A DNA stretch of 64,000 nt from an uncultured Parcubacteria group bacterium (GTDB taxonomy: Bacteria > Patescibacteriota > Patescibacteriia > UBA9934 > CAMTUG01), in assembly GCA_947084965.1 (NCBI GenBank), contig CAMTUG010000001.1, forward strand, positions 276,206 through 340,205. The letters run 5' to 3'. Shown one piece after another: positions 1 to 39,944 of the stretch; position 1 is the stretch's first letter; each line of letters begins with the position of its first letter. The notes below the pieces were generated by a model that had not been told where the DNA came from, made no database searches, and saw only the letters and a program-made list of their open reading frames with translations. A program made the position numbers and the translations under genes.

Positions 1-907
1 AAAGATCAAGAAGCACGCCTTTCACCTGTTGATCTTTTCGATCCTTCTCCTGATCCTAGTTTTTATCCCAGGGATCGGATCGAGCTTTGGAACTTCGCAT
101 AGCTGGATTACGCTTGGCGGACTGTTTTCGATTCAGCCGGCCGAGATCGTCAAGCTGACCTTTTTGTTTTATCTCGCGGCCTGGCTGGAAAAGCGCGGCG
201 GGGTTGTCAAAGATCTGGATGGACTGATGCCGTTTCTGATCGCCCTTGGATCGGTGCTTTTTCTGATCGCCCTTCAGCCAGATACCGGCACCATGGCGGT
301 GATCGCGGGGATGTCGTTCATCGTCTACTTTGTCGCCGGCGCTCCGATTCTTCATTTGGCTGGACTTGGAGGGATTGGGGCGGTCTTTTTGCTCATCCTC
401 ATTAAATCATCGACCTATCGCGCCGAACGATTCATGGCTTTTTTACACCCCGAGCTTGATCCCCAGGGGATCGGGTATCATATTAACCAGGCACTTCTGG
501 CGATTGGCTCTGGTGGGTTATTCGGTTTGGGCTACGGCTTGTCGCGTCAAAAGTTCGAGTACCTGCCGGAAGTCGTCGGAGACTCGATCTTTGCAGTGAT
601 CGCTGAAGAGATGGGATTCGTGATCGCCGCCGGTTTGGTCGTTCTCTTCGTCGCCTTTTTGTGGCGCGGCATGAAAATCGCCAAAGCAGCGCCCGACGCT
701 TTTGGGAAATATTTGGTCGTCGGGGTTGTTTCGTGGATTACGATTCAGGCCTTTGTGAACATCGGTTCGATGACCTCGATCATGCCGATGACCGGAGTGA
801 CGCTGCCATTCGTCAGCTACGGCGGAACGTCGCTCGTAGTGTGTATGTCGGCGGTCGGGGTGGTGCTTAGTGTGTCACGTGGAAACTATGGGAATGCAAA
901 ATCCTAA
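1..907 (+). CDS. ftsW: FtsW/RodA (SEDS) family cell-division/elongation protein, 5'-truncated by the window edge
   Basis: Reading frame is open from position 2. C-terminal SEDS-like motifs are present (GYHINQALLAIGSGGLFGLGYGLS, PEVVGDSIFAVIAEE). It sits immediately upstream of murG, as in dcw clusters. Confidence 0.75.
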   Translation, partial: KIKKHAFHLLIFSILLLILVFIPGIGSSFGTSHSWITLGGLFSIQPAEIVKLTFLFYLAAWLEKRGGVVKDLDGLMPFLIALGSVLFLIALQPDTGTMAVIAGMSFIVYFVAGAPILHLAGLGGIGAVFLLILIKSSTYRAERFMAFLHPELDPQGIGYHINQALLAIGSGGLFGLGYGLSRQKFEYLPEVVGDSIFAVIAEEMGFVIAAGLVVLFVAFLWRGMKIAKAAPDAFGKYLVVGVVSWITIQAFVNIGSMTSIMPMTGVTLPFVSYGGTSLVVCMSAVGVVLSVSRGNYGNAKS

Positions 908-1018
908 ATACGAAACACGAAACACGAAACAATCGGAAAGTTCGAATAGGAAATGTTTGAATATTTTTGATTTACGATTTGATTTTGTTTCGTATTTCGT
1001 ATTTCGTATTTCGTATTT
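908..1018. repeat. Intergenic inverted array of heptamer repeats (ACGAAAC x3 ... TCGTATT x4) forming a long imperfect hairpin between ftsW stop and murG start
   Basis: Seen directly: aaatacgaaacacgaaacacgaaacaatcggaaag ... gttttgtttcgtatttcgtatttcgtatttcgtattt. It is related to the element at 6425-6545. Confidence 0.7.
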
Positions 1019-2098
1019 ATGAAAGTCATGCTCACAGGCGGAGGAACGCTCGGTCCGGTGACGCCGCTTTTGGCGATCGCCGAAGTCTGGCGTCGGGAAG
1101 ATATCCGTGCGGAGTTTGTCTGGATCGGCACACCTGGCGGACCGGAACGGAGCGTTGTCGAAGCGGCCGGGATCCCATTTCATCCTTTGTTTGTTCCTAA
1201 GCTTGATCGTTATGCTCCCGGGAAGTGGGTGTTCATTCCCTTTCGGTTGCTTTGGTCGATGAAGATGGCCCTGCACCTGATTCAACGCGAGCGGCCGGAT
1301 GTGGTGGTGACGGCTGGGGGGTATGTCAGCGTTCCGCTCCTGTGGGCCGCCAAGCTGTACGGCATCCCAACCTGGGTGCATCAGCAAGATGTGCGCGCCG
1401 GACTTGCCAATAAACTCATGGCGCCGTTTGCGACCAAGATTTCCGTCGCTTGGACGCGGTCGCTGCACGCGTTTGATGAGAAAAAGACGATCCATATCGG
1501 GAATCCGGTACGGGATTCTGTTTTGCACGGATCGCAGCAACGCGGGGCGGAGCGATTCGGATTTGATCTGTCGCGTCCAACGGTTCTGGTTTTTGGTGGT
1601 GGCACGGGCGCGGCCTGGATCAATCACGCGATCGCTCAGGTCGTTCCTGAATTGTGTATGACCGCGAATGTTCTGCATATCACCGGGCGAGGGAAGTTGA
1701 CGTCGGTCGAGCCTCGACCAAACTATCAGGCCGTAGAGTTACTCACGACCGAGATGCCGGATGCGCTCGCTCTCGCCGATCTGGTCGTCTGTCGTGCTGG
1801 CATGGCCACGATTTCCGAACTTGCCGCATTAGCCAAACCGGCGATGGTGATTCCGATCCCAGATTCGCACCAAGAAGATAACACCGCCGCCCTAGAAGAA
1901 CTCAGTGCTGCGGTGATTGTTCACCAGGCGCAGACAACGCCGCAGATGCTCTTGCAGCACATCCTTGGTTTTCTTGAGAATCCAGAAGAACGACGTAAGC
2001 TCGGTGCGCGACTGCACGCCGCGTTACCAACCACGGACGTTGCCCTCAAACTGGCGCATCATTTGGAAGCTATGGTAAAACAAGGATCCTCCCGCTAA
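1019..2098 (+). CDS. murG: UDP-N-acetylglucosamine--N-acetylmuramyl-(pentapeptide) pyrophosphoryl-undecaprenol GlcNAc transferase MurG
   Basis: N-terminus MKVMLTGGGTLGPVTPLLAIAE, GT28 architecture, 359 aa, adjacent to ftsW. Confidence 0.85.
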   Translation: MKVMLTGGGTLGPVTPLLAIAEVWRREDIRAEFVWIGTPGGPERSVVEAAGIPFHPLFVPKLDRYAPGKWVFIPFRLLWSMKMALHLIQRERPDVVVTAGGYVSVPLLWAAKLYGIPTWVHQQDVRAGLANKLMAPFATKISVAWTRSLHAFDEKKTIHIGNPVRDSVLHGSQQRGAERFGFDLSRPTVLVFGGGTGAAWINHAIAQVVPELCMTANVLHITGRGKLTSVEPRPNYQAVELLTTEMPDALALADLVVCRAGMATISELAALAKPAMVIPIPDSHQEDNTAALEELSAAVIVHQAQTTPQMLLQHILGFLENPEERRKLGARLHAALPTTDVALKLAHHLEAMVKQGSSR

Positions 2099-2154
2099 CC
2101 AGAAAAGCTCCCCATAAACATGAGAAGCTTTTCTGGTGCGCTGGGCGGGGATCG
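2092..2154. repeat. Copy 1 of a 63-nt direct repeat: murG 3' end, a bidirectional terminator hairpin and the last 21 nt of tRNA-Lys
   Basis: Identical 63-mer at 2092-2154 and 2266-2328: ccgctaaccagaaaagctccccataaacatgagaagcttttctggtgcgctgggcggggatcg. The hairpin is ccagaaaagct...agcttttctgg. Confidence 0.8.
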
Positions 2155-2307
2155 TCCGTCGTGAGCCTCCCCATAGGGGCTTCCGCCCCTCTGGTCGTCG
2201 CTTCGCTCCTGTCACCCCCGGCATGTAAGGGGAGTGCCTCCCCTTACCATCCCCTCGTCCGATCCCCGCTAACCAGAAAAGCTCCCCATAAACATGAGAA
2301 GCTTTTC

Positions 2308-6424: not shown

Positions 6425-6545
6425 TATGAAAATACGAAATCCGGAAATCGAAATTCGAAACAAATCAGAATCGGAAAGGGAAAATTTCAAACCTTTCACT
6501 TTTTTCTCTTTTCCGATCGTTTCGAATTTCGATATTTGAATTTCG
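6425..6545. repeat. Intergenic inverted-repeat element with TTCGAA(A/T)-type units forming a long hairpin. Related to 908-1018
   Basis: aatcgaaattcgaaac ... gtttcgaatttcgat; tcggaaag ... cttttccga. It shares aatcggaaag and acgaaa units with the ftsW-murG element. Confidence 0.7.
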
Positions 6546-6550
6546 AATAT

Positions 6551-9638: not shown

Positions 9639-10297
9639 CCAGTATTGCGGCGATCGTGCCGGCCTACAATGAAGCACAGACGATTGCGGACGTCGTAGCG
9701 ACGCTCCGTCAGAGTGTATTGGTGCAGGAGGTGATCGTCGTTTCTGACGGTTCAACCGATGATACGGAAGCGTTGGCGGCCTCTGCGGGGGCGCGGGTCA
9801 TTCGTCTGTCAAAAAAAGGAGGGAAGGGAGCGGCGATGCTCCATGGACTCACACAGACCGATGCCCAGATTATTCTGTTTACTGACGCGGATTTGATTGG
9901 ATTTACCACTGAGCATGTTGAACGCCTCTTACTTCCGATCCTAAACGGAGCGCGGGTTATGAACGTCGGTTTGCGTGACCGAGGGCGCTTGATTACGGCT
10001 CTGGGAAGGTTCTTGCCTCTCATTGGCGGCGAGCGGGCGATTCGGCGATCGGTCATTGAACAGATTCCTCCTCACTTTTTGCAAGGATTTATGATAGAAT
10101 CTGCTTTGAACTACTTCTGTCGATCGCGGCGCTTGGCGTACGGTTCCGTAGCCCTGCCTGGGCTTACCATTCGACGCAAGTATCAAAAAGTGGGTTGGAA
10201 GGAAGGATTTAAACAATATGCTCGGATGTCGGGCCAGATCGTGACCGCTATGGTTCGTGTCCGTATCGCCCATTTGACTGGAACATTTCACGTATGA
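9636..10297 (+). CDS. Glycosyltransferase family 2, polyprenyl-phosphate sugar transferase-like
   Basis: AIVPAYNEAQTIADVV...VIVVSDGSTDDTEALA (GT2 DxD region). Translationally coupled to murD by ATGA. Confidence 0.75.
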
Positions 10298-13572: not shown

Positions 13573-14043
13573 ATGGCTACCACAAACTTCATTCGCCGCC
13601 TGCTCGAACTACGTCTCTTCCTTGTGATTAACTTGGTGGCGCTCTTTTTCCTTTCACTTTCGTTCGGCCGCGAATATCTCCGTAATGCATCGATTGAGTC
13701 AGAAATTGCTTCGCTTAAAGCAGAAGAGTCAGCTCTTTCTGCCCGTAACCTAGAAATCATTGCTCTCTCTGAGTCTGTCCAAACTCAGTATTTTGTCGAA
13801 GGTGAGGGACGGGTCAAATACGGTTTACGCAAACCGGGGGAGGAATTGGTCGTTGTGACTCAAACGGAAACCGCCCAGCCACAGGCAACGGTGACGGACG
13901 GCCAGTCGGCCACGTCGAGCGACACAGGACCGACGGAATCAGAGGGGGAGGAGAACCGGGTAGGCAATCCGACGCGTTGGTGGTATTTCTTGTTCGATCA
14001 CCCGGCTTACGATCAACTGATCACAGACTATGGAAACGGCTGA
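13573..14043 (+). CDS. Septum formation initiator (FtsB/DivIC/FtsL-like)
   Basis: N-terminal TM, coiled coil, conserved YFVEGEGRVKYGLRKPGEELVVV tail. Confidence 0.65.
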   Translation: MATTNFIRRLLELRLFLVINLVALFFLSLSFGREYLRNASIESEIASLKAEESALSARNLEIIALSESVQTQYFVEGEGRVKYGLRKPGEELVVVTQTETAQPQATVTDGQSATSSDTGPTESEGEENRVGNPTRWWYFLFDHPAYDQLITDYGNG

Positions 14044-14935
14044 AGTCATCATTCATCCAAAACAGAAAACGCGCGCGCCTCGCTGGCCCTTCGCGATTTT
14101 ATTCGCGATCGCCTGTGTCGTGTTTGTTTGGTACGGCATGATGTATGGCCATAAGAGTGGTTGGGTCACGCGGTTTATCAGTGTTGTTCTCCCTGTGCCG
14201 GCGGTTGTGGTGAATGATGATACGATCACCTATCGCGATCTGCTGGTGCGGACGGATACGCTGTTATGGTTGAAGGGGGAGGACGCCGATCGCGAAGAGA
14301 CCTTTGCTCAGGCGATTAATGTGCTGATCGAGCAAGCACTTATTGAACAGATCGCTCGTGATTACGACGTCGAAGTGACCCGGGATGATAAGGATGCGGC
14401 GCTCTTGATGCTTGCAGGAGAGCTCGATGAAGATGCGTTTGCAGAAAAGATTCGCGACGAGTTGGATATGAGCTTGCGTCAGTTTGCGCGGGTGGTGGTC
14501 GAACCGCTCGCCTTGGCACAGAAACTTGAAATAGCGATTCATGAAGACGAGGCGACGCAAGCCGAAGTCCAGGCTAAGGCTGAAGAGGCGAGGGATAAGG
14601 TGTTGGCAGGGATGAGTTTTTCTGAAGCAGCAGCGCTCTATTCGCAAGATCCTTCGGGAGCAGAGGGCGGGGATGTTGGCTATATCACCAAAGCGACATT
14701 ACCAGCCGGTTGGGATATGTTGCTGACGTTACCAGAGGAGGGGGTGAGTGGGGTGATTGAAACAGAAGGGGAGTTCGTAATTTTGAAAGTCGCCTGGTTG
14801 GTTGGGGTCGGCGAAGATACACAGATCCGCACTCAGGCGATTATTCTCAAAAAGAAGACACTGTCAGAGATTGTTGCGTCGCGCCGCGAAACGAGTGATA
14901 TTTCGTACGTGGTGAAAAATGTTGATGGGCTCTAG
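14030..14935 (+). CDS. SurA/PrsA-like protein with PpiC (parvulin) peptidyl-prolyl isomerase domain
   Basis: N-terminal TM. C-terminal parvulin-like LAGMSFSEAAALYSQDPSGAEGGDVGYITKATLPAGWDMLLTLPEEGVSGVIETEGEFVILKV. Confidence 0.6.
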   Translation: METAEVIIHPKQKTRAPRWPFAILFAIACVVFVWYGMMYGHKSGWVTRFISVVLPVPAVVVNDDTITYRDLLVRTDTLLWLKGEDADREETFAQAINVLIEQALIEQIARDYDVEVTRDDKDAALLMLAGELDEDAFAEKIRDELDMSLRQFARVVVEPLALAQKLEIAIHEDEATQAEVQAKAEEARDKVLAGMSFSEAAALYSQDPSGAEGGDVGYITKATLPAGWDMLLTLPEEGVSGVIETEGEFVILKVAWLVGVGEDTQIRTQAIILKKKTLSEIVASRRETSDISYVVKNVDGL

Positions 14936-15012
14936 TTGGAGGTGCTTCAAAATACTGTTTTACAGTTCGTTTGAGCACATAATGTCGTCAAACGAACTGT
15001 AAAAGTACTTTT
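14936..15012. repeat. ~77-nt intergenic hairpin element, copy 1. Copy 2 is at 59868-59945
   Basis: ttttacaGTTCGTTTGAgcacataatgtcgTCAAACGAACtgtaaaag: 12-13 bp stem, 13-nt loop. ~85% identical to copy 2, including the flanks. Confidence 0.75.
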
Positions 15013-15034
15013 TAAGACACCCAACCTCGCGCGT

Positions 15035-15481: not shown

Positions 15482-15555
15482 GCGGGATTAGTACAGTGGT
15501 AGTATGCAAGCTTCCCAAGCTTGAGAGGCGAGTTCGATTCTCGTATCCCGCTCCA
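15482..15555 (+). tRNA. tRNA-Gly (anticodon CCC)
   Basis: GCGGGAT acceptor, D-arm GTACAGTGGTAGTAT, anticodon loop TTCCCAA, T-arm AGAGGCGAGTTCGATTCTCG, ATCCCGC-T-CCA. Confidence 0.85.
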
Positions 15556-15715
15556 GGAACATCGTAAATTTTGGAACACTGCTTTGTTGCGGGTCCCTGC
15601 CACCTTCGTCGACGCACCTTTCAGTGCGCCTCCTCGGATGGCATCCCGCGCCTCGCATTGTTCTCAAAATTGACGATGTTCCTGGAAGCCAGTCCCGATG
15701 ACTGTTGATTTTGAT

Positions 15716-16521: not shown

Positions 16522-17429
16522 TTACAGTTTATCGCATCGGAAAATTTGCGTTCCAGAACTTCTGGAGGAATATCTGGCTCTCGATCATCACCGTGACCAT
16601 TTTGGTGTTGACGTTGCTCACCGTGAACATCCTTTTGGTGTTGAATGTGATCGGACAGACGGCGGTCAAGACGATTGAAGCGAAGATCGACGTCTCCGTG
16701 ACGTTCACTCCGGAGACGAGTACAACCCTGATCGGCAACGCTCGCGGATATTTGCTCTCCTTGCCGCAAGTTAAGGATGTGCGCACGCTCTCTCCAGAGG
16801 AGGTGTTGCGGGACTTCCGTGCAGACAACGCGGGGAATCCAGATGTCCTCGCTTCGCTCGATGAGGTCGAAGGCAATCCATTCGGTGGTCAGTTGGTGAT
16901 CCTCGCCAACAATCCGGAGGATTTCGATTTCATTCTGGAGGCGCTGGAAAGTCCAGAATACAAACCGTCTATCGCGGACAAAGATTTTGAAGATCATCAG
17001 GTGGTGATTCAGAACATCACGACGACCTTCGACAAGATTCGTACGGGGGGGATTATTCTCGGTGGAATCTTTTTGTTGATCACCGTTCTTATTATCGTGA
17101 ATACGATCCGGGTTGCTATTTATACCCACCGAGAAGAGATCGGCATTATGCGCCTCGTCGGTGCACCAAACTTCTTCATCCGCGCTCCATTCCTCGTCGA
17201 GGCGATGCTGTATACCTTGATCGCTGTGCTCGTAACGATCGCGATCGTCTATCCGACGATCAGCCTGATTGAGCCGGCTCTTGATGCCTTCTTCCAAACC
17301 ACGCCTACCGGTTTGCTGAGCTATTTCACCGCCAACTTTGAGCTTATTTTCGGCTTGCAGCTGGCGGCGCTCTGTATCATCAACATGGTTGCGACGGGGT
17401 TTGCTATGCGCAAGTACCTTCAGGTTTGA
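16518..17429 (+). CDS. ftsX: Cell-division permease FtsX
   Basis: FtsX topology of TM, large extracellular loop and 3 TM; overlaps ftsE by 4 nt. Confidence 0.8.
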   Translation: MITVYRIGKFAFQNFWRNIWLSIITVTILVLTLLTVNILLVLNVIGQTAVKTIEAKIDVSVTFTPETSTTLIGNARGYLLSLPQVKDVRTLSPEEVLRDFRADNAGNPDVLASLDEVEGNPFGGQLVILANNPEDFDFILEALESPEYKPSIADKDFEDHQVVIQNITTTFDKIRTGGIILGGIFLLITVLIIVNTIRVAIYTHREEIGIMRLVGAPNFFIRAPFLVEAMLYTLIAVLVTIAIVYPTISLIEPALDAFFQTTPTGLLSYFTANFELIFGLQLAALCIINMVATGFAMRKYLQV

Positions 17430-17556
17430 TGAAACGAGGTAAATTCCTCGATTTGCTGCGTTATGGGGCCCCGACGACTCCTCAACGTACCGGCCATGTA
17501 CGTCTTGATCGTCGTCCTCCCCATGCCTTGCAACTCGAGTTTTTACCTCGTTTCAT
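17429..17556. repeat. 128-nt imperfect palindromic long-hairpin element (REP/MITE-like), family copy E1
   Basis: Perfect 15-bp terminal inverted repeats atgaaacgaggtaaa / tttacctcgtttcat. Nested inner stems and an apical hairpin acgtac-cggccat-gtacgt. Related to the element at 27258-27379. Confidence 0.7.
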
Positions 17557-17593
17557 TGACTTAGCATCATCATTGTAGTACTATCCGATCCTT

Positions 17594-19048
17594 ATGACAG
17601 AGAACACGTTTTTCGGGTTAGGGATTGCGCCAAAGCTGCTCGACGTTTTGCAAGCCAATAAATACGTCACGCCAACGCCGATTCAGCAAAAGGCGATCCC
17701 GATCGCCATTGAAGGGAAGGATATCGTTGGAATCGCACAGACCGGAACGGGAAAGACGCTCGCTTTTTCCATCCCGATGCTTCAGCGACTGGCCGCCACC
17801 GGGGGAAAAGGGTTGGTGATTTTGCCAACCCGCGAATTAGCGTTGCAGGTCGAAGAAACGGTCATGAAGATCGGCCGCACGGCTGGGATTCGCACCGCTG
17901 TTTTAATTGGTGGTGCGTCGATGGGGTTACAGAAGAAGATGATCGAACGCAAGCCGCACGTGATCGTGGCCACCCCAGGTCGCTTGAATGATCATTTGCA
18001 GCAGGGGACGGTCAAGCTCGATGACGTCCGAGTTTTGGTGCTCGATGAAGCGGATCGCATGCTCGATATGGGCTTTGCTCCGCAGATCAACAAGATCATG
18101 GTCAAGTTGCCAAAGGATCGCCAGACGATGTTGTTTTCGGCAACGATGCCGCAGGAGATCGCCAAGATGGCCGCGGAATTTATGAAGCTCCCGTTGCGCG
18201 TCGAGATCGCCCGTCAAGGGACGACGGCTGAGCGGGTGGTGCAAGAAATGTTTGTGGTCAACAAAGAAGACAAGCAGCGTCTGCTCGAAAAATTACTCAC
18301 GGAATATAAAGGTACGGTTCTTGTCTTTTCACGCACCAAGCACGGGGCAAAAAAGATTTGCAAAGCGATCCAGACGATGGGGCACACCTCGGCCGAAATC
18401 CATTCCAATCGCTCACTTGCCCAGCGTAAAGAGGCGTTGAATGGATTTAAGAGCGGGAAGTATCGCGTCCTTGTAGCCACCGACATCGCTGCTCGCGGGA
18501 TCGACGTTACGGGGATTGAACTGGTCATCAACTTTGATCTTCCGGATGCTTCCGAAGACTACGTCCATCGCATCGGCCGCACCGGCCGCGCCGGCATGGC
18601 TGGTCGCGCTATTTCCTTTGCTACACCAGATCAACGCGGAGACATTCGCCAGATCGAGCGCTTAGTGCGTACCCAATTCAACTTGTTGAAACCAGAAGGG
18701 TTGCCAGAGCGCCGTGCTGCGCCGCCTGCTGATCCTAAGGATCAACGCACCCATGGCGGTCCTGCGCGTCATGGTGGAGGCCCATCACGCCACGGCCGTT
18801 CGCCACAAGGCGGCCGCCCGAATCGTGATGCTTCCCGTTTTGAACAAAAATCTCATCCAGCCCCACAGCATCACGCTTCGACCGGCGGATCGTCCGCTCC
18901 TCGTCGTGACGACGCTCGTCCACCGCGCCGAGACGATTCGCGTCCACCCCGCCGCGAAGGCGGTCACGGCCGCTCATCCGGCGCCGGCAATCCAAACCGC
19001 CCACCCAAGCGCGGCCCCAAGAAGTATTTTTACGGTTCAGCCTGGTAA
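17594..19048 (+). CDS. DEAD-box ATP-dependent RNA helicase with Arg/Gly/Pro-rich disordered C-terminal tail
   Basis: Q-motif, GTGKT, DEAD (VLDEADRML), SAT, HRIGRTGRAG; the tail carries RPPRRDD repeats. Confidence 0.85.
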   Translation: MTENTFFGLGIAPKLLDVLQANKYVTPTPIQQKAIPIAIEGKDIVGIAQTGTGKTLAFSIPMLQRLAATGGKGLVILPTRELALQVEETVMKIGRTAGIRTAVLIGGASMGLQKKMIERKPHVIVATPGRLNDHLQQGTVKLDDVRVLVLDEADRMLDMGFAPQINKIMVKLPKDRQTMLFSATMPQEIAKMAAEFMKLPLRVEIARQGTTAERVVQEMFVVNKEDKQRLLEKLLTEYKGTVLVFSRTKHGAKKICKAIQTMGHTSAEIHSNRSLAQRKEALNGFKSGKYRVLVATDIAARGIDVTGIELVINFDLPDASEDYVHRIGRTGRAGMAGRAISFATPDQRGDIRQIERLVRTQFNLLKPEGLPERRAAPPADPKDQRTHGGPARHGGGPSRHGRSPQGGRPNRDASRFEQKSHPAPQHHASTGGSSAPRRDDARPPRRDDSRPPRREGGHGRSSGAGNPNRPPKRGPKKYFYGSAW

Positions 19049-19529: not shown

Positions 19530-19603
19530 GGACAGCGGCCTTTGAAGCCGTGAATCGTGGTTCGAATCCACGTCCCGGAACCAAGAAAAATGACCAGCGC
19601 GTG
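19530..19603 (+). tRNA. tRNA-Gln (anticodon TTG)
   Basis: TCCGGGA acceptor, anticodon loop CTTTGAA, T-arm CGTGGTTCGAATCCACG, TCCCGGA-A-CCA. Confidence 0.8.
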
Positions 19604-19637
19604 CTGGTCGTTTTTCTTTGTCGACGTGGATTCGAAT
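19604..19637. terminator. Bidirectional terminator hairpin between tRNA-Gln and mscL
   Basis: aaaaat-gaccagc-gcgt-gctggtc-gttttt. Confidence 0.65.
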
Positions 19638-26355: not shown

Positions 26356-27252
26356 TCAGTTTCGATTGAGGCCGTCAACTGTTTTGACAGCAAAGTCAAC
26401 GATCGCGCCAGCGACATCGACGCCCGATGCGCGTTCTAATTCTTCAAATCCTGGATTGGCGTTGACTTCGATCACCAGCGGTCCTCGTTTTGAGCGAAGG
26501 ATATCGACGCCGGCGATTTCAAGGCTGAACGCTTTTGCCGCCTCGATCGCCATGCGCATCTCTTCTTCTGTCAGTTCAACCGCTGTGCCAACTCCACCAA
26601 GCGACGCGTTGGCACGAACGTCACCGATGATTGCGGTGCGTTCCATCGCTGCAATCACTTGGTCACCAACAACAAAGGCGCGCAGATCTTTGCGACCCGC
26701 TTCGGCGATAAACTCCTCAACGATGATCGGGTTTTTGTCACGAATATGTAAATATTCAACGATCGGGGAGAGCGTTTCCACGTTCTCGGCGTAAAAAATC
26801 CCTTTGCCGTGGGTACCGAAGGCAACTTTTAAAATGATCGGATAGCCGATTTTGGCCGCCTCCGCTCGGGCATGATCCGAGGTGCGGCAGATCGCCCAGC
26901 GCGGCATGGCCACGCCAGCACGCGAGAGAATGAAATGTTGCGCCAGCTTATTTTTGGCGATCCCTCCGAGCGGGGAGTGGTTGATCACGCGAAAACCAAG
27001 AGCAACGAGCGCGTCCGTCGTAACGGCGTGCAAGCTCGGCTCTTCGACGAACCCTGGTCGGTTAATAATCACATCGAGCTTCGGTAACTCAGCTCCCATG
27101 TGCGTGACGATGCCTCCGGCGATGACGATCTCCGGCTCATGGAGCATCGTCACCTCGTGTCCCATCGCTCGTGCGGCCTGAATCAACCGCGGTGCGAGCG
27201 CTGGGTCGTCGATCTGTTTTGGGCGGCCGCTGGTTAAGATTCCAATGTGCAT
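26356..27252 (-). CDS. RimK-family ATP-grasp ligase (alpha-L-glutamate ligase-like)
   Basis: ATP-grasp motifs (GYPIILKVAFGTHGKGIFY, EEFI...GRKDLRAFVVGDQVIAAMER, GVDILRSKRGPLVIEVNANPGF). Confidence 0.75.
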   Translation of the reverse strand: MHIGILTSGRPKQIDDPALAPRLIQAARAMGHEVTMLHEPEIVIAGGIVTHMGAELPKLDVIINRPGFVEEPSLHAVTTDALVALGFRVINHSPLGGIAKNKLAQHFILSRAGVAMPRWAICRTSDHARAEAAKIGYPIILKVAFGTHGKGIFYAENVETLSPIVEYLHIRDKNPIIVEEFIAEAGRKDLRAFVVGDQVIAAMERTAIIGDVRANASLGGVGTAVELTEEEMRMAIEAAKAFSLEIAGVDILRSKRGPLVIEVNANPGFEELERASGVDVAGAIVDFAVKTVDGLNRN

Positions 27253-27257
27253 AATGT

Positions 27258-27379
27258 GGATCTTTAGAAAACTGCGTCTTTTCGTTTCACGGGTCCCGTC
27301 GACCCACTCAACGTAGAATCCCTACGTCTCGCGGGCTCGACACCCGTTCAACGAAAATACATCAGTTTTCTAAAGATCC
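27258..27379. repeat. 122-nt imperfect palindromic long-hairpin element, family copy E2
   Basis: Perfect 17-bp terminal inverted repeats ggatctttagaaaactg / cagttttctaaagatcc. Apical hairpin acgtag-aatcc-ctacgt. Inner motif ccgtcgacccactcaacgta is similar to E1 ccccgacgactcctcaacgta. Confidence 0.7.
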
Positions 27380-28324
27380 AAGAGCTAGTTCGAGATCTTC
27401 GATCGTCGAGATCGCGTGGAGTTTTTCGCGCATCATTTTGGCTCCGGGCAGGCCTTTGAAGTACCACATCAAATGCTTCCGGAAAGAGACGATCCCTTTG
27501 GGGCCGTACTGTTCAACGTGAAGTTCTGCATGACGGCGGATGACGCGCAGGCGTTCTTCAAAGCTCACTGGTGTTGGTGTTTTCCCATTCAATATTTCGT
27601 GCATCTGCGAAAAGATCCACGGATTGCCGAGCGCTCCGCGGGCGATCAGTACGCCGTCGCAGCCGGACGCTCTGAGCGCTTCGGGCATCAACTCGGCTTT
27701 ATGAATGTCACCGTTACACAATACAGGAATCGACACGGCAGACTTTACCTTACCAACCTGCACCCAATCAGCGGTACCAGAATAGCCTTGCATTTTCGTG
27801 CGTCCATGAACGGTGATCAGATCAGCTCCGGCCGCTTCAAGCACCTTAGCAAACTCCACGCACTGTTCAGGGTCGTTCCATCCAAGACGGATTTTGACTG
27901 AAAGTGGAACGTTGATCACCGCCTTCATCGCTTTTATAATCTCGCCGGCTAACTTTGGTTCTTTCATCAGCGCCGCGCCATTAAAGTTGTGGACGATTTT
28001 ATACACCGGGCATCCCATGTTGATGTCGAACCCTTCCGGGTTATGCTCAGCCGCGATGATCCGTGCCGACTCGGCCATCGTGGCCGGGTCGCTTCCAAAG
28101 ATCTGCTGCACCAAAGGCCGTTCCGCTGGGTGAATCTCGGTCATCCCGAGCGTTTTGTCCGATCCGCGTACCACCGCTTCGGCCGAAACCATCTCACGAA
28201 ATTCAACCAAGTTCACTTCCGGAGGAGTGACTTCGCGCACCACGCGACAAAAGGCCGAGTCGGTCATGTCGGCCATCGGCGAAAGCGCAATGATCGGGCG
28301 TGGGAGAGATTTCCAATCGAGCAT
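27362..28324 (-). CDS. tRNA-dihydrouridine synthase (DusB-like)
   Basis: ALSPMADMTDSAFCRV, TIM-barrel FMN motifs, catalytic-Cys region NMGCPV. Confidence 0.8.
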   Translation of the reverse strand: MLDWKSLPRPIIALSPMADMTDSAFCRVVREVTPPEVNLVEFREMVSAEAVVRGSDKTLGMTEIHPAERPLVQQIFGSDPATMAESARIIAAEHNPEGFDINMGCPVYKIVHNFNGAALMKEPKLAGEIIKAMKAVINVPLSVKIRLGWNDPEQCVEFAKVLEAAGADLITVHGRTKMQGYSGTADWVQVGKVKSAVSIPVLCNGDIHKAELMPEALRASGCDGVLIARGALGNPWIFSQMHEILNGKTPTPVSFEERLRVIRRHAELHVEQYGPKGIVSFRKHLMWYFKGLPGAKMMREKLHAISTIEDLELALGSLEN

Positions 28325-28405
28325 AGCAAGGCAGGATGATACATCCACAGGACGCGTCAGTCAATTCTGTGCTATACTTTTAGCAATTAATCTAACGTCA
28401 TTTTT

Positions 28406-39679: not shown

Positions 39680-39944
39680 ACAATAAGGTAGTAGGGTGCA
39701 AAGGAAGACCCTCGAAATCATTTGATGATCTCGGGGGATTTTGTTTGTCGAGACTTGGGATCCGTGGGCCCTGATACGGTTATCCTGCTGAACCTCATCA
39801 ATTCGGCACGAGGGGTTCGACTCCCCTAGGGTCCACGGCTTCAGGTCTTGACCAAATGTCACTTTTTCTAGTAGGTTTAAATCGATGAGGTTCAGCTGAT
39901 GATACCTATCAGAAACAAAACAGAGCGCAATGGCGCTCTGTTTT
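39680..39944 (+). ncRNA. Candidate structured ncRNA (~265 nt) with a tRNA-like acceptor/T-arm module. Identity unresolved (tmRNA-like, tRNA-derived or novel)
   Basis: Promoter upstream and a strong terminator at 39917-39944 (aaaacagagcgc-aatg-gcgctctgtttt). A perfect T-arm AGGGG-TTCGACT-CCCCT is followed by the acceptor 3' strand AGGGTCC; the 5' strand GGGCCCT (39766-39772) pairs with it. A 13-nt long-range inverted repeat (gctgaacctcatc at 39787-39799, gatgaggttcagc at 39884-39896) is present, plus several local hairpins. Confidence 0.35.

What the first reader, a model, noticed from the sequence alone, without database searches (positions are those of the whole stretch)
27258..27379. Second long-hairpin palindromic element (E2) upstream of the RimK-Mur-ligase operon, related to E1
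Perfect 17-bp terminal inverted repeats (ggatctttagaaaactg / cagttttctaaagatcc) enclose an inner region. That region shares ccgtcgac-c-ctcaacgta and an apical ACGTAG...CTACGT hairpin with E1, while the terminal repeats differ. It sits at the 5' end of the candidate biosynthetic operon, so it may carry that operon's promoter or regulate it.
Basis: seen in the sequence. Interest (0 to 1): 0.55.

Follow-up and report, generated by a model that had tools for sequence, protein, structure and literature searches.

The report
Dispersed 130-nt hairpin repeat, CPR bacteria
The palindrome is real and is one copy of a widespread, apparently undescribed family of about 130-base hairpin-forming repeats in tiny "candidate phyla radiation" bacteria. 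This copy was inserted between two co-oriented genes (dus and rimK) and shows no sign of being that operon's promoter.

Summary
Window 27257-27380 is a 124-nt near-perfect hairpin with an 18-bp perfect basal stem (RNA MFE -76 kcal/mol on the - strand, z about -10). It is related to E1 (17429-17556) and to a third copy, E3 (15552-15686). One covariance model hits all three, 14 copies in related Uhrbacteria/Patescibacteria genomes, and 89 matches (85 copies) in 80 metagenome loci. Rfam, the searched papers, and the phage and plasmid collections gave no match.

One strand is the selected one: it folds better in 99 of 102 copies and carries tandem G.A loops. Its arm-to-arm mismatches are G.T far more often than A.C (340 vs 131), and purine-purine far more often than pyrimidine-pyrimidine.

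E2 lies in that sense orientation inside a dus-rimK transcription unit. The dus stop codon is in its 5' arm and the rimK ATG is 5 nt after its 3' arm. The three nearest relatives have dus and rimK overlapping or less than 20 nt apart, so E2 is a lineage-specific insertion. No sigma-70-like promoter was found.

Best reading: an ERIC/REP-like mobile hairpin repeat acting in RNA at transcript junctions. The exact role and the way it moves are unknown. In all 15 tRNA-abutting copies, the same end of the element faces the tRNA.

The parts
27257..27380 (-). E2: a full copy of the hairpin repeat. The canonical (selected) strand is the - strand, which is the sense strand of the dus and rimK mRNA.
   Evidence: fold; covariance model R1, 102.5 bits, E about 1e-18, model positions 1-130.
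27363..27380 (-). 5' arm of the 18-bp perfect basal helix. It encodes the last Dus residues G-S-L-E-N; the stop codon begins inside the arm and ends one base beyond it.
27362..27364 (-). dus stop codon (TGA), straddling the inner edge of the 5' arm of the hairpin.
   Evidence: ORF 27362..28348; Pfam Dus, E 1e-83.
27257..27274 (-). 3' arm of the basal helix. It ends 5 nt before the rimK-like ATG.
27310..27328 (-). Apical stem-loop GACGUAG-GGAUU-CUACGUU. It holds the family's near-invariant CGUA...UACG core.
   Evidence: columns 71-74 pair with 116-119 in 85-87 of 88 distinct sequences.
27329..27330 (-). 5' half of the conserved 2x2 GA/GA internal loop that flanks the apical stem. Its partner is at 27308-27309.
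27308..27309 (-). 3' half of the conserved GA/GA internal loop.
27295..27297 (-). Unpaired GGG on the 3' side, an asymmetric internal loop. E1 has GGGG and E3 has GGGA at the same place.
27250..27252 (-). Start codon of the rimK-like ATP-grasp gene, 5 nt after the base of the hairpin.
   Evidence: P0001, 100% identical, 298 aa; M1 invariant in 20 homologues.
17429..17556 (-). E1: a second family copy. It is antisense to its flanking genes. Its canonical 3' end abuts the ftsX stop codon, and 37 nt lie between it and the DEAD-box helicase ATG.
15552..15686 (-). E3: a third family copy. It starts in the CCA end of tRNA-Gly(ccc) and ends 30 nt before tRNA-Thr(cgt). Its canonical 3' end faces the tRNA-Gly.

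Best explanation
E2 is one copy of a dispersed family of about 130-nt imperfect-palindrome repeats found in Patescibacteria (CPR; the source looks Uhrbacteria-like). The family resembles ERIC, REP and Correia elements in kind.

Shown:
- The family exists, and the whole hairpin is the repeated unit.
- Copies have reached new loci.
- E2 is a lineage-specific insertion exactly at a formerly tight dus|rimK junction.
- One strand, the canonical strand, is the one under constraint. It carries a perfect basal helix of roughly 18-20 bp with an A-tract/T-tract, a bulged A, two tandem G.A loops, fixed U.G and G.U pairs, and an invariant CGUA..UACG apical stem.

Inferred:
- The selected form is a folded single strand, most simply RNA, because host genes and tRNAs must be transcribed through many copies.
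- In E2 the canonical strand is the sense strand of a dus-E2-rimK transcript.
- There the hairpin most likely acts as a junction element. It could be a very stable stem-loop that blocks 3'-to-5' exonucleases, or a double-strand-specific processing site, or both. Either role would uncouple the upstream and downstream RNAs.
- Because the dus stop codon and the rimK start codon sit at the two sides of the helix base, the hairpin probably also makes rimK initiation depend on melting or cleavage of that helix.

E2 is not a promoter. How the element spreads is unknown: no target duplication, no conserved termini and no linked transposase were found.
For: Family membership. CM R1 hits E2, E3 and E1, 14 copies in 9 of 59 related genomes, and 89 matches (85 distinct copies) in 80 metagenome loci. 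All are about 130 nt, with GC from 0.28 to 0.65.

Structure. 88.8% of pair cells form standard pairs, against 59.5% in shuffles and about 37% when partners are slid. 38 of 42 pairs show changes on both sides (the alignment was fitted to the model).

Strand specificity.
- The canonical strand is more stable in 99 of 102 copies, by a mean of 12.5 kcal/mol.
- Arm-to-arm mismatches: G.T 340 vs A.C 131 (p 2e-22); G/A mismatches 730 vs T/C 18.
- The bias also holds in the 26 copies that lie antisense to both neighbours (G.T 90 vs A.C 29).

Spread to new loci.
- L065 and L077 are 98.7% identical over 154 nt on one contig, with unrelated flanks.
- L074 and L117 are 88% identical exactly over the hairpin, with unrelated flanks.

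E2 as an insertion. Dus is 75% identical in L001, where dus and rimK overlap by 19 nt. L002 and L003 also have gaps under 20 nt. dus-rimK synteny holds in 35 of 59 loci, and none has a family copy at the junction.

Placement at transcript junctions.
- The canonical 3' end lies within 25 nt of a gene end in 55 of 84 cases (median 3 nt). For the 5' end the figure is 25 of 93 (median 79 nt); p 2.5e-7.
- 49 copies sit right after a stop codon.
- 12 copies sit 0-8 nt before a tRNA 5' end, and 10 of those 12 have a same-strand gene upstream. That implies co-transcription through the hairpin.

No promoter was found in E2.
Against: - There are no transcript data, so RNA rather than single-stranded DNA is an inference.
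- Canonical-strand features persist in copies antisense to both neighbours, and those copies have no fixed upstream promoter. A purely cis, sense-RNA role does not explain this.
- No classical terminator is called at E2. The T-run lies inside the stem.
- Closely related copies differ mainly by double, pair-preserving changes, including 22 of the transversion/flip type. A DNA-level arm-to-arm correction process could produce these as well as selection on RNA could.
- Copies within one genome are as divergent as copies between genomes (0.50 vs 0.48 identity). That is unlike a recently active MITE.
Confidence: 0.5

Rival explanations
1. A purely selfish, non-autonomous mobile DNA element. It would resemble a MITE or REPIN and be moved as a folded single DNA strand by an enzyme encoded elsewhere in the genome. 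The strand-specific loops would be the enzyme's recognition features. The host-gene context would only reflect where insertions are tolerated.
For: - Near-identical copies occur at unrelated loci.
- The element is present or absent at the dus-rimK junction and upstream of tRNA-Gln among relatives.
- There is a truncated half copy in L003 and a tandem pair in L009.
- Strand asymmetry is independent of neighbouring gene orientation.
- The absence of a target duplication fits single-strand transposition of the IS200/IS605 or RAYT type.
Against: - No transposase, RAYT, integrase or reverse transcriptase was found in the 56 window ORFs scanned against Pfam (10 of the 66 candidate ORFs were not scanned). 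None recurs next to 85 metagenome copies.
- The termini are not conserved and no target motif is seen.
- Most copies within a genome are only 40-60% identical yet keep about 90% pairing with G.T far exceeding A.C. That argues for maintenance in place rather than neutral decay after insertion.
Confidence: 0.25
2. A trans-acting small structured RNA, such as a protein-binding scaffold or a precursor. It would be made from its own or a neighbour's promoter. When followed by a tRNA, RNase P would release it with an exact 3' end.
For: - Sequence-invariant paired and unpaired positions (GAUGAGAU, GAG.CGUA..UACG.UGAG, AGAUCGC) span GC contents from 0.28 to 0.65.
- Room is left on the canonical 5' side (median 79 nt) but not on the 3' side (median 3 nt).
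- All 15 tRNA-abutting ends are canonical 3' ends (p 6e-5). On the canonical strand, both arrangements read hairpin, then 0-4 nt, then an acceptor-type helix.
Against: - No promoter sits at a fixed distance.
- E2 and 12 other copies are wedged between co-oriented genes with no room for their own promoter.
- No partner protein gene is linked.
- Tens of divergent copies per genome would be unusual for a trans-acting RNA.
Confidence: 0.13
3. One reading: E2 carries the promoter of, or is a dedicated regulator of, the RimK/Mur-ligase biosynthetic operon.
For: E2 ends 5 nt before the rimK-like ATG, so its structure could affect rimK translation.
Against: - No promoter-like site was found.
- The dus gene runs into the element.
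- The nearest relatives with the same operon lack the element.
- Family copies flank unrelated genes.
Confidence: 0.05
4. A stem-loop guide RNA unit of a TIGR-Tas system. These are known in CPR bacteria.
For: It is CPR-derived. It has a variable palindromic stem around a conserved interior, and small clusters of units occur (L009, L091). The features were compared with PMC12045711 and bioRxiv 10.64898/2026.09.09.750476.
Against: - tigRNA units need two unpaired spacers of 8-12 nt, each flanked by box D and box C. Here the arms are complementary throughout.
- Copies are dispersed rather than arrayed.
- No Nop-domain or Tas gene was found among the scanned window ORFs, and none recurs near other copies.
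Confidence: 0.02

Closest known systems
ERIC / IRU elements of Enterobacteriaceae and Vibrio (about 127-bp imperfect palindromes)
   Same: Same size class. Imperfect palindromes in transcribed intergenic regions, found in either orientation, with no known transposase and conserved well beyond a single species.
   Different: A different phylum, and no sequence relation was shown. Here the ends are the least conserved part and the interior non-Watson-Crick loops the most conserved. No TA target duplication. There is strict polarity towards tRNA ends.
REP / BIME / REPIN elements with RAYT transposases
   Same: Intergenic, hairpin-forming, strand-specific and commonly at gene 3' ends. REPINs are long hairpins maintained over long periods.
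   Different: REPs are 20-40 nt with a conserved GTAG/CGTC head (PMC3733652, seen only as a title and abstract), and copies within a genome are nearly identical. Here the unit is one 130-nt hairpin, the ends are variable, copies within a genome are about 50% identical, and no RAYT gene was seen.
Correia (CREE/NEMIS) elements of Neisseria and other bacterial MITEs (RUP, BOX, RPE)
   Same: Non-coding repeats of about 100-150 bp that fold as hairpins in mRNA. They are often co-transcribed and may run into the ends of ORFs, as E2 supplies the last dus codons.
   Different: Those elements have conserved terminal inverted repeats and target-site duplications. Both were tested here and not found.
Intercistronic RNase III hairpins (phage T7 early region; rRNA operon processing stems)
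   Same: A helix of roughly 20 bp with internal loops, placed exactly between co-transcribed units, leaving a hairpin at the upstream 3' end. This is an analogy for the proposed mode of action.
   Different: Those are single-locus signals rather than a dispersed homologous family. Cleavage was not tested here.
TIGR-Tas stem-loop tigRNA units
   Same: Found in CPR bacteria, with a variable palindromic stem and a conserved interior.
   Different: No unpaired dual spacers, no box C/D layout, no array and no tas gene.

Membership tests
The hairpin family defined here (model R1) | Full-length match to the covariance model on one strand | tested here: met
   E2 scores 102.5 bits over model positions 1-130 on the - strand, against 40.7 bits on the + strand. 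E2 was one of the 12 seed sequences. Independent copies score 85-116 bits.
The hairpin family defined here (model R1) | Conserved motifs: A-tract, bulged A, UGA-GA-U / A-GA-UCG, C-GA-G.CGUA..UACG.U-GA-G | tested here: met
   E2 has GAAAACUG-A-UGU.., CGAGACGUA..UACGUUGAG and AGACGC. Its basal GAUGAGAU motif is degenerate (GAUGUAU).
MITE (non-autonomous cut-and-paste transposon) | Terminal inverted repeats conserved among copies | tested here: not met
   Every copy has inverted termini, but their sequence is the least conserved part of the element.
MITE (non-autonomous cut-and-paste transposon) | Target-site duplication flanking the element | tested here: not met
   The distribution of flanking direct repeats equals that obtained with shuffled partners. 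One pair, L065/L077, shares a 10-11-nt flanking repeat, but it is the same sequence in both copies.
MITE (non-autonomous cut-and-paste transposon) | Near-identical copies at different loci | tested here: inconclusive
   A few such pairs exist (98.7% and 88%). Most copies within a genome are 36-68% identical. Only fragments of genomes were available.
MITE (non-autonomous cut-and-paste transposon) | A cognate autonomous element or transposase in the genome | not testable with these tools
   None was found in the window ORFs scanned or near other copies. Whole genomes could not be read.
REP/REPIN-RAYT | A short REP unit with a conserved GTAG/CGTC head, and a RAYT gene | tested here: not met
   No conserved terminal tetranucleotide was found, and no Y1 transposase domain in the scanned ORFs.
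ERIC/IRU | Sequence homology to the ERIC consensus | not tested
   No ERIC consensus was available to align. The resemblance is in architecture and context only.
Intrinsic (rho-independent) terminator | A short G+C-rich stem directly followed by a U-run | tested here: not met
   The scan calls none at E2 on either strand. The conserved T-run is base-paired to the A-tract inside the basal helix.
Sigma-70-type promoter | -35 and -10 hexamers with 16-18 nt spacing upstream of rimK | tested here: not met
   0 sites in 27100-27550. There is no positional enrichment of -10-like hexamers across the family.
TIGR-Tas stem-loop tigRNA | Two unpaired 8-12-nt spacers, each between box D and box C, inside a stem; arrayed next to a tas gene | tested here: not met
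   The arms are complementary throughout. No Nop/Tas gene was seen.
Integron attC site | R''/R' core sites RYYYAAC ... GTTRRRY at the ends, following a cassette ORF in an array | tested here: not met
   Reading of the termini of about 100 copies shows no such cores. Copies flank tRNAs and housekeeping genes rather than cassettes.
Any Rfam 15 family | A match to a curated covariance model | tested here: not met
   Only tRNAs matched in the window at gathering score. Nothing matched at E<=10 in 27150-27480. Nothing relevant matched in four loci holding 8 copies.

The most novel reading that the evidence does not exclude
The family is a previously unrecognised class of structured RNA in CPR bacteria, not just a selfish repeat. 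It would be a roughly 130-nt rod-like RNA with sequence-specific G.A loops. It would be produced from the canonical strand and cut to exact ends by the tRNA-processing machinery; the hairpin sits flush against an acceptor-type helix on either side of tRNA genes. It would have a dedicated protein partner and a role in RNA processing or decay, or in defining the ends of nearly leaderless mRNAs and tRNAs in these minimal genomes.
Probability: 0.25. Interest if true: 0.75.

Novelty: new member of a known kind. Interest (0 to 1): 0.58.

Why it matters
CPR/Patescibacteria have genomes of roughly 1 Mb with very little non-coding DNA. A 130-nt element kept in tens of copies is therefore conspicuous. 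Its density in the window is 3 copies per 64 kb, and it spans organisms with GC contents from 28 to 65%.

The family shows unusually clear single-strand constraint: fixed G.A loops, G.T far exceeding A.C, and heavy pair-preserving change. It also shows a strict geometric rule towards tRNA and gene ends. It was not found in Rfam or in the searched literature.

If it acts in RNA, it would reveal how these uncultured organisms punctuate and stabilise their polycistronic transcripts. If it is selfish, it is a mobile element with no recognisable transposition signature.

For annotation, it explains odd C-terminal extensions such as the GSLEN tail of Dus, and the long 'intergenic' gaps seen in CPR genomes.

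Tried and rejected
1. Outer stems as inverted duplications of the local flank. The idea came from the dus codons in E2, the CCA end in E3, and the tRNA-Gln T-arm hairpin at 19561-19636. Rejected for this family. Outer stems of different copies share a weak consensus (..GAGATyTCT..AAAA..). The L001 empty site shows that the whole hairpin, stems included, is the inserted DNA.
2. Target-site duplications and conserved flanking motifs: none found.
3. An own promoter at a fixed distance: none found.
4. A small ORF starting at the conserved ATGAGAT. E2 hits a stop after 4 codons, and the stems covary (reading).
5. Orientation set by replication direction. Copies in opposite orientations lie under 200 nt apart in L091, L132 and L009.
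6. A linked protein gene. Clustering 326 neighbouring ORFs gave no family present in more than 3 loci.
7. Viral origin. There was one pattern match in 2.9 million viral contigs, and it scores only 15.8 bits.
8. Plasmid and phage collections: no blastn match.
9. Fetching the source genome by exact protein look-up failed twice, so the genome-wide copy number is unknown.
10. Extra structure just downstream of the canonical 3' end: only a small effect (-5.5 vs -4.4 kcal/mol), which I treat as inconclusive.
11. Enrichment of tRNA neighbours per element end is not significant (p 0.21). Only the polarity is.
12. A first sliding-window folding script timed out.

Full report
**1. The observation**

Window 27257-27380 contains an 18-bp perfect inverted repeat: TGGATCTTTAGAAAACTG pairs with CAGTTTTCTAAAGATCCA, with 88 nt between the arms. 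The whole 124 nt folds into one long stem-loop. The RNA MFE is -76.2 kcal/mol on the - strand and -64.0 on the + strand. The z-scores are -10.6 and -9.6, and 0 of 200 shuffles fold as well on either strand.

All three are more stable on the - strand. E1 and E2 share GGGnCCCG.CGAC..CTCAACGTA. The local alignment score is 28, z is 5.6, and 0 of 1000 palindrome-preserving shuffles reach it. The similarity appears only in the same orientation.

**2. Context of E2**

On the - strand, a Dus-family gene (27362..28348; Pfam Dus, E 1e-83) runs into the element. Its last codons G-S-L-E-N and its TGA stop (27362-27364) lie in or at the edge of the 5' arm.

A RimK-like ATP-grasp gene (26356..27252) starts 5 nt after the 3' arm. 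It is followed by a Mur-ligase-like gene, an alpha/beta hydrolase, a DegT aminotransferase and a FemAB-like gene. No sigma-70-like promoter is found on either strand in 27100-27550. The simplest reading is a single dus-rimK transcript that contains E2 in the sense orientation.

RimK homologues identify the organism as a Patescibacteria (CPR) bacterium near Uhrbacteria. One NCBI protein is 100% identical, and the next best is 67%. The source contig could not be fetched.

**3. A family, not a pair**

I fetched 59 loci around RimK homologues from GTDB species genomes, all of them Patescibacteria/Uhrbacteria MAGs. I scanned them for long hairpins.

Many carried about 130-nt hairpins that align with E1-E3 in one orientation. 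The consensus runs: variable stem, AAAAnTGG, A, TGA, GA, T.., C-GA-G.CGTA (loop) TACG.T-GA-G.. A-GA-TCG, CCAnTTTT, variable stem.

A covariance model built from 12 of them (R1) gave these results:
- E2 scores 102.5 bits, E3 78-81 bits and E1 57.3 bits.
- It finds 14 copies in 9 of the 59 related loci.
- A filter-free scan finds no other copy in the window.

In the 80 loci returned, R1 found 89 matches, which are 85 distinct copies. Nearly all are full length (about 130 nt), and GC ranges from 0.28 to 0.65.

The same pattern found one weak, partial match in 2.9 million viral contigs. Rfam 15 has no matching family. Three literature searches found no description. blastn against the plasmid and phage collections found nothing.

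**4. One strand is the constrained one**

On the model-fitted alignment, 88.8% of pair cells are standard pairs. The figure is 59.5% in column shuffles and about 37% with slid partners. 38 of 42 pairs change on both sides. That alignment leans towards the structure, so I also made an alignment-independent comparison of the two arms of each copy.

- The canonical strand folds better in 99 of 102 copies, by a mean of 12.5 kcal/mol.
- Arm-to-arm mismatches: G.T 340 vs A.C 131 (p 2e-22). In the outer 18 nt the counts are 116 vs 18.
- G/A mismatches number 730 and T/C mismatches 18.
- Several positions are fixed in sequence: a U.G pair and a bulged A at the top of the basal helix, two 2x2 GA/GA loops, a G.U/G-C pair closing the apical stem, and an invariant CGUA..UACG.

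A double-stranded DNA site would not conserve mismatches between its arms. The selected object is therefore a folded single strand.

The asymmetry is just as strong in the 26 copies that lie antisense to both neighbours (G.T 90 vs A.C 29).

**5. Where copies sit**

I examined 102 copies with a rough ORF caller and ARAGORN.

- The canonical 3' end lies within 25 nt of a neighbouring gene end in 55 of 84 cases (median 3 nt).
- The 5' end does so in 25 of 93 cases (median 79 nt); p 2.5e-7.

| Neighbour within 25 nt | Copies |
|---|---|
| Stop codon of an opposite-strand gene, at the canonical 3' end | 31 |
| Stop codon of a same-strand gene, at the canonical 5' end | 18 |
| tRNA 5' end on the same strand, 0-8 nt downstream | 12 |
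| CCA end of a tRNA on the other strand (overlapping) | 4 |

All 15 element ends that abut a tRNA are canonical 3' ends (p 6e-5). On the canonical strand, both tRNA arrangements read hairpin, then 0-4 nt, then an acceptor-type helix.

tRNA neighbours as such are not over-represented per element end (p 0.21).

Ten of the 12 copies upstream of a tRNA have a same-strand gene or tRNA upstream. Those tRNAs must therefore be transcribed through the hairpin.

In the window:
- E1 abuts the ftsX stop codon, antisense to ftsX, and is followed by a TTGACT-17-TACTAT promoter for a DEAD-box helicase.
- E3 starts in the CCA end of tRNA-Gly and ends 30 nt before tRNA-Thr.
- E2 belongs to the class of 13 copies that are wedged, in sense orientation, between co-oriented genes with tight junctions on both sides.

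**6. Mobility**

E2 is an insertion. In L001, Dus is 75% identical to the window protein and dus overlaps rimK by 19 nt. The sequence there is ..ATCTTATGCGCATTGGCATCTTAA, with the rimK ATG inside the end of dus. L002 and L003 also have gaps under 20 nt. dus-rimK synteny holds in 35 of 59 loci, and none has a family copy at the junction.

Several other lineages carry unrelated long hairpins at that same junction.

Copies have reached new loci:
- L065 and L077 are 98.7% identical over 154 nt on one contig, with unrelated flanks.
- L074 and L117 are 88% identical exactly over the hairpin, with unrelated flanks.
- L009 has a tandem pair, and L003 has a truncated half copy.

The classical signatures of transposition are missing, however:
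- No target duplication.
- No conserved termini or flank motif.
- No recurrent neighbouring gene.
- No transposase, RAYT, integrase, reverse transcriptase or Nop/Tas domain among the 56 window ORFs scanned.

Copies within a genome are mostly as divergent as copies between genomes (0.50 vs 0.48 identity).

Close pairs (75-92% identity) differ by 48 double Watson-Crick-to-Watson-Crick changes, 22 of them transversions or flips. By comparison they show 62 single changes. That is far more than independent mutation would give. It points either to strong selection on pairing or to arm-to-arm templated correction.

**7. Explanation**

What is shown: E2 is a lineage-specific insertion of a member of a widespread, structurally constrained hairpin repeat family of CPR bacteria. 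Its canonical strand is the sense strand of dus-rimK. No promoter signal was found in it.

What is inferred: the constrained single strand is RNA. Host tRNAs and genes must be transcribed through many copies. The element sits at transcript junctions, and its basal helix of about 18-20 bp and G.A loops are typical RNA features.

The most likely action is as a junction hairpin. It could protect the upstream 3' end, or serve as a double-strand-specific processing site, or both. For E2, the dus stop and the rimK start would be held at the base of one helix, so rimK initiation would depend on melting or cleavage of that helix.

I put 0.5 on this package. Family identity and insertion status are near certain; the RNA-level junction role is much less so.

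The rivals are:
- A purely selfish single-strand DNA element (0.25).
- A trans-acting small RNA released by tRNA processing (0.13).
- A TIGR-Tas guide unit (0.02). This is excluded because the arms are fully complementary, with no unpaired dual spacers, and no tas gene is present.

**8. Comparison with known systems**

In kind, this is closest to ERIC/IRU, REP/REPIN and Correia-type intergenic palindromic repeats. It fails the defining tests for MITEs (conserved termini and target duplication), REP/RAYT, attC sites, intrinsic terminators, sigma-70 promoters and tigRNAs.

I therefore file it as a new family of a known general kind. Its unusual traits are:
- Variable ends around a conserved interior of non-Watson-Crick loops.
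- Strong single-strand asymmetry, independent of neighbouring gene orientation.
- The rule that the canonical 3' end sits flush against gene and tRNA ends.

These traits are unexplained, and they are the reason for the moderate-to-high interest score.

Noticed in passing
window 2091-2158 and 2264-2331: A direct repeat of about 68 nt. The second copy overlaps the 3' end of tRNA-Lys(ttt) (2308-2382, - strand), and each copy contains a terminator-like hairpin. It looks like an att-type duplication of a tRNA 3' end only 173 bp apart, possibly the scar of an integrated element.
   Followed up: partly
window 19561-19636: The T-arm of tRNA-Gln (TTCGAATCCACGTC) is repeated in inverted orientation 48 nt downstream. 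The two copies enclose a classical A-tract/T-tract terminator hairpin. The whole region folds at -49.8 kcal/mol (z -6.7).
   Followed up: partly
window 893-1022 and 6432-6548: AT-rich long hairpins built from short ACGAAA(C/T)- and TCGAAAT-type repeats. They are a different repeat class from E1-E3 and score only 18-24 bits with model R1.
   Followed up: partly
window 14941-15021: An 81-nt hairpin of unrelated sequence, starting 6 nt after the stop codon of the SurA/PpiC-like gene (14030..14935). MFE -37.5 kcal/mol, z -5.7.
   Followed up: partly
window 39771-39912: 33-nt imperfect inverted repeats enclose a T-arm-like GGGGTTCGACTCCCC, but neither ARAGORN nor Rfam calls a tRNA or tmRNA there.
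   Followed up: no
window 17557-17596: TTGACT-17-TACTAT lies only 9 nt before the ATG of the DEAD-box helicase gene. That suggests a leaderless or nearly leaderless mRNA in this organism.
   Followed up: no
L012 4772-4879; L043 9715-9804; L037 about 9930-9990: Another hairpin repeat family in related CPR genomes, with ends ATGTCATTGCGAG...CTCGCAATGACA. One copy lies at the dus-rimK junction of L037.
   Followed up: no
L012 1196-1340; L036 9790-10001; L053 9810-10001; L058 9805-10001: The dus-rimK junction has independently acquired unrelated long hairpins in several lineages, while most relatives have the two genes abutting.
   Followed up: partly
L040 5227-5388: A 168-nt hairpin (-109 kcal/mol). 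It shares the family's outer stem, A-tract and CGAGCCGTAG motif, but carries a long AT-rich apical extension. R1 scores it at only 22.7 bits.
   Followed up: no
L065 809-830 and 955-977; L077 4251-4276; L127 10807-10906: A short AAATCTT(T)AATCTT-type repeat recurs in these contigs. It directly flanks both near-identical hairpin copies (L065/L077) as a 10-11-nt direct repeat. It could be a preferred target or part of a larger repeat unit.
   Followed up: partly
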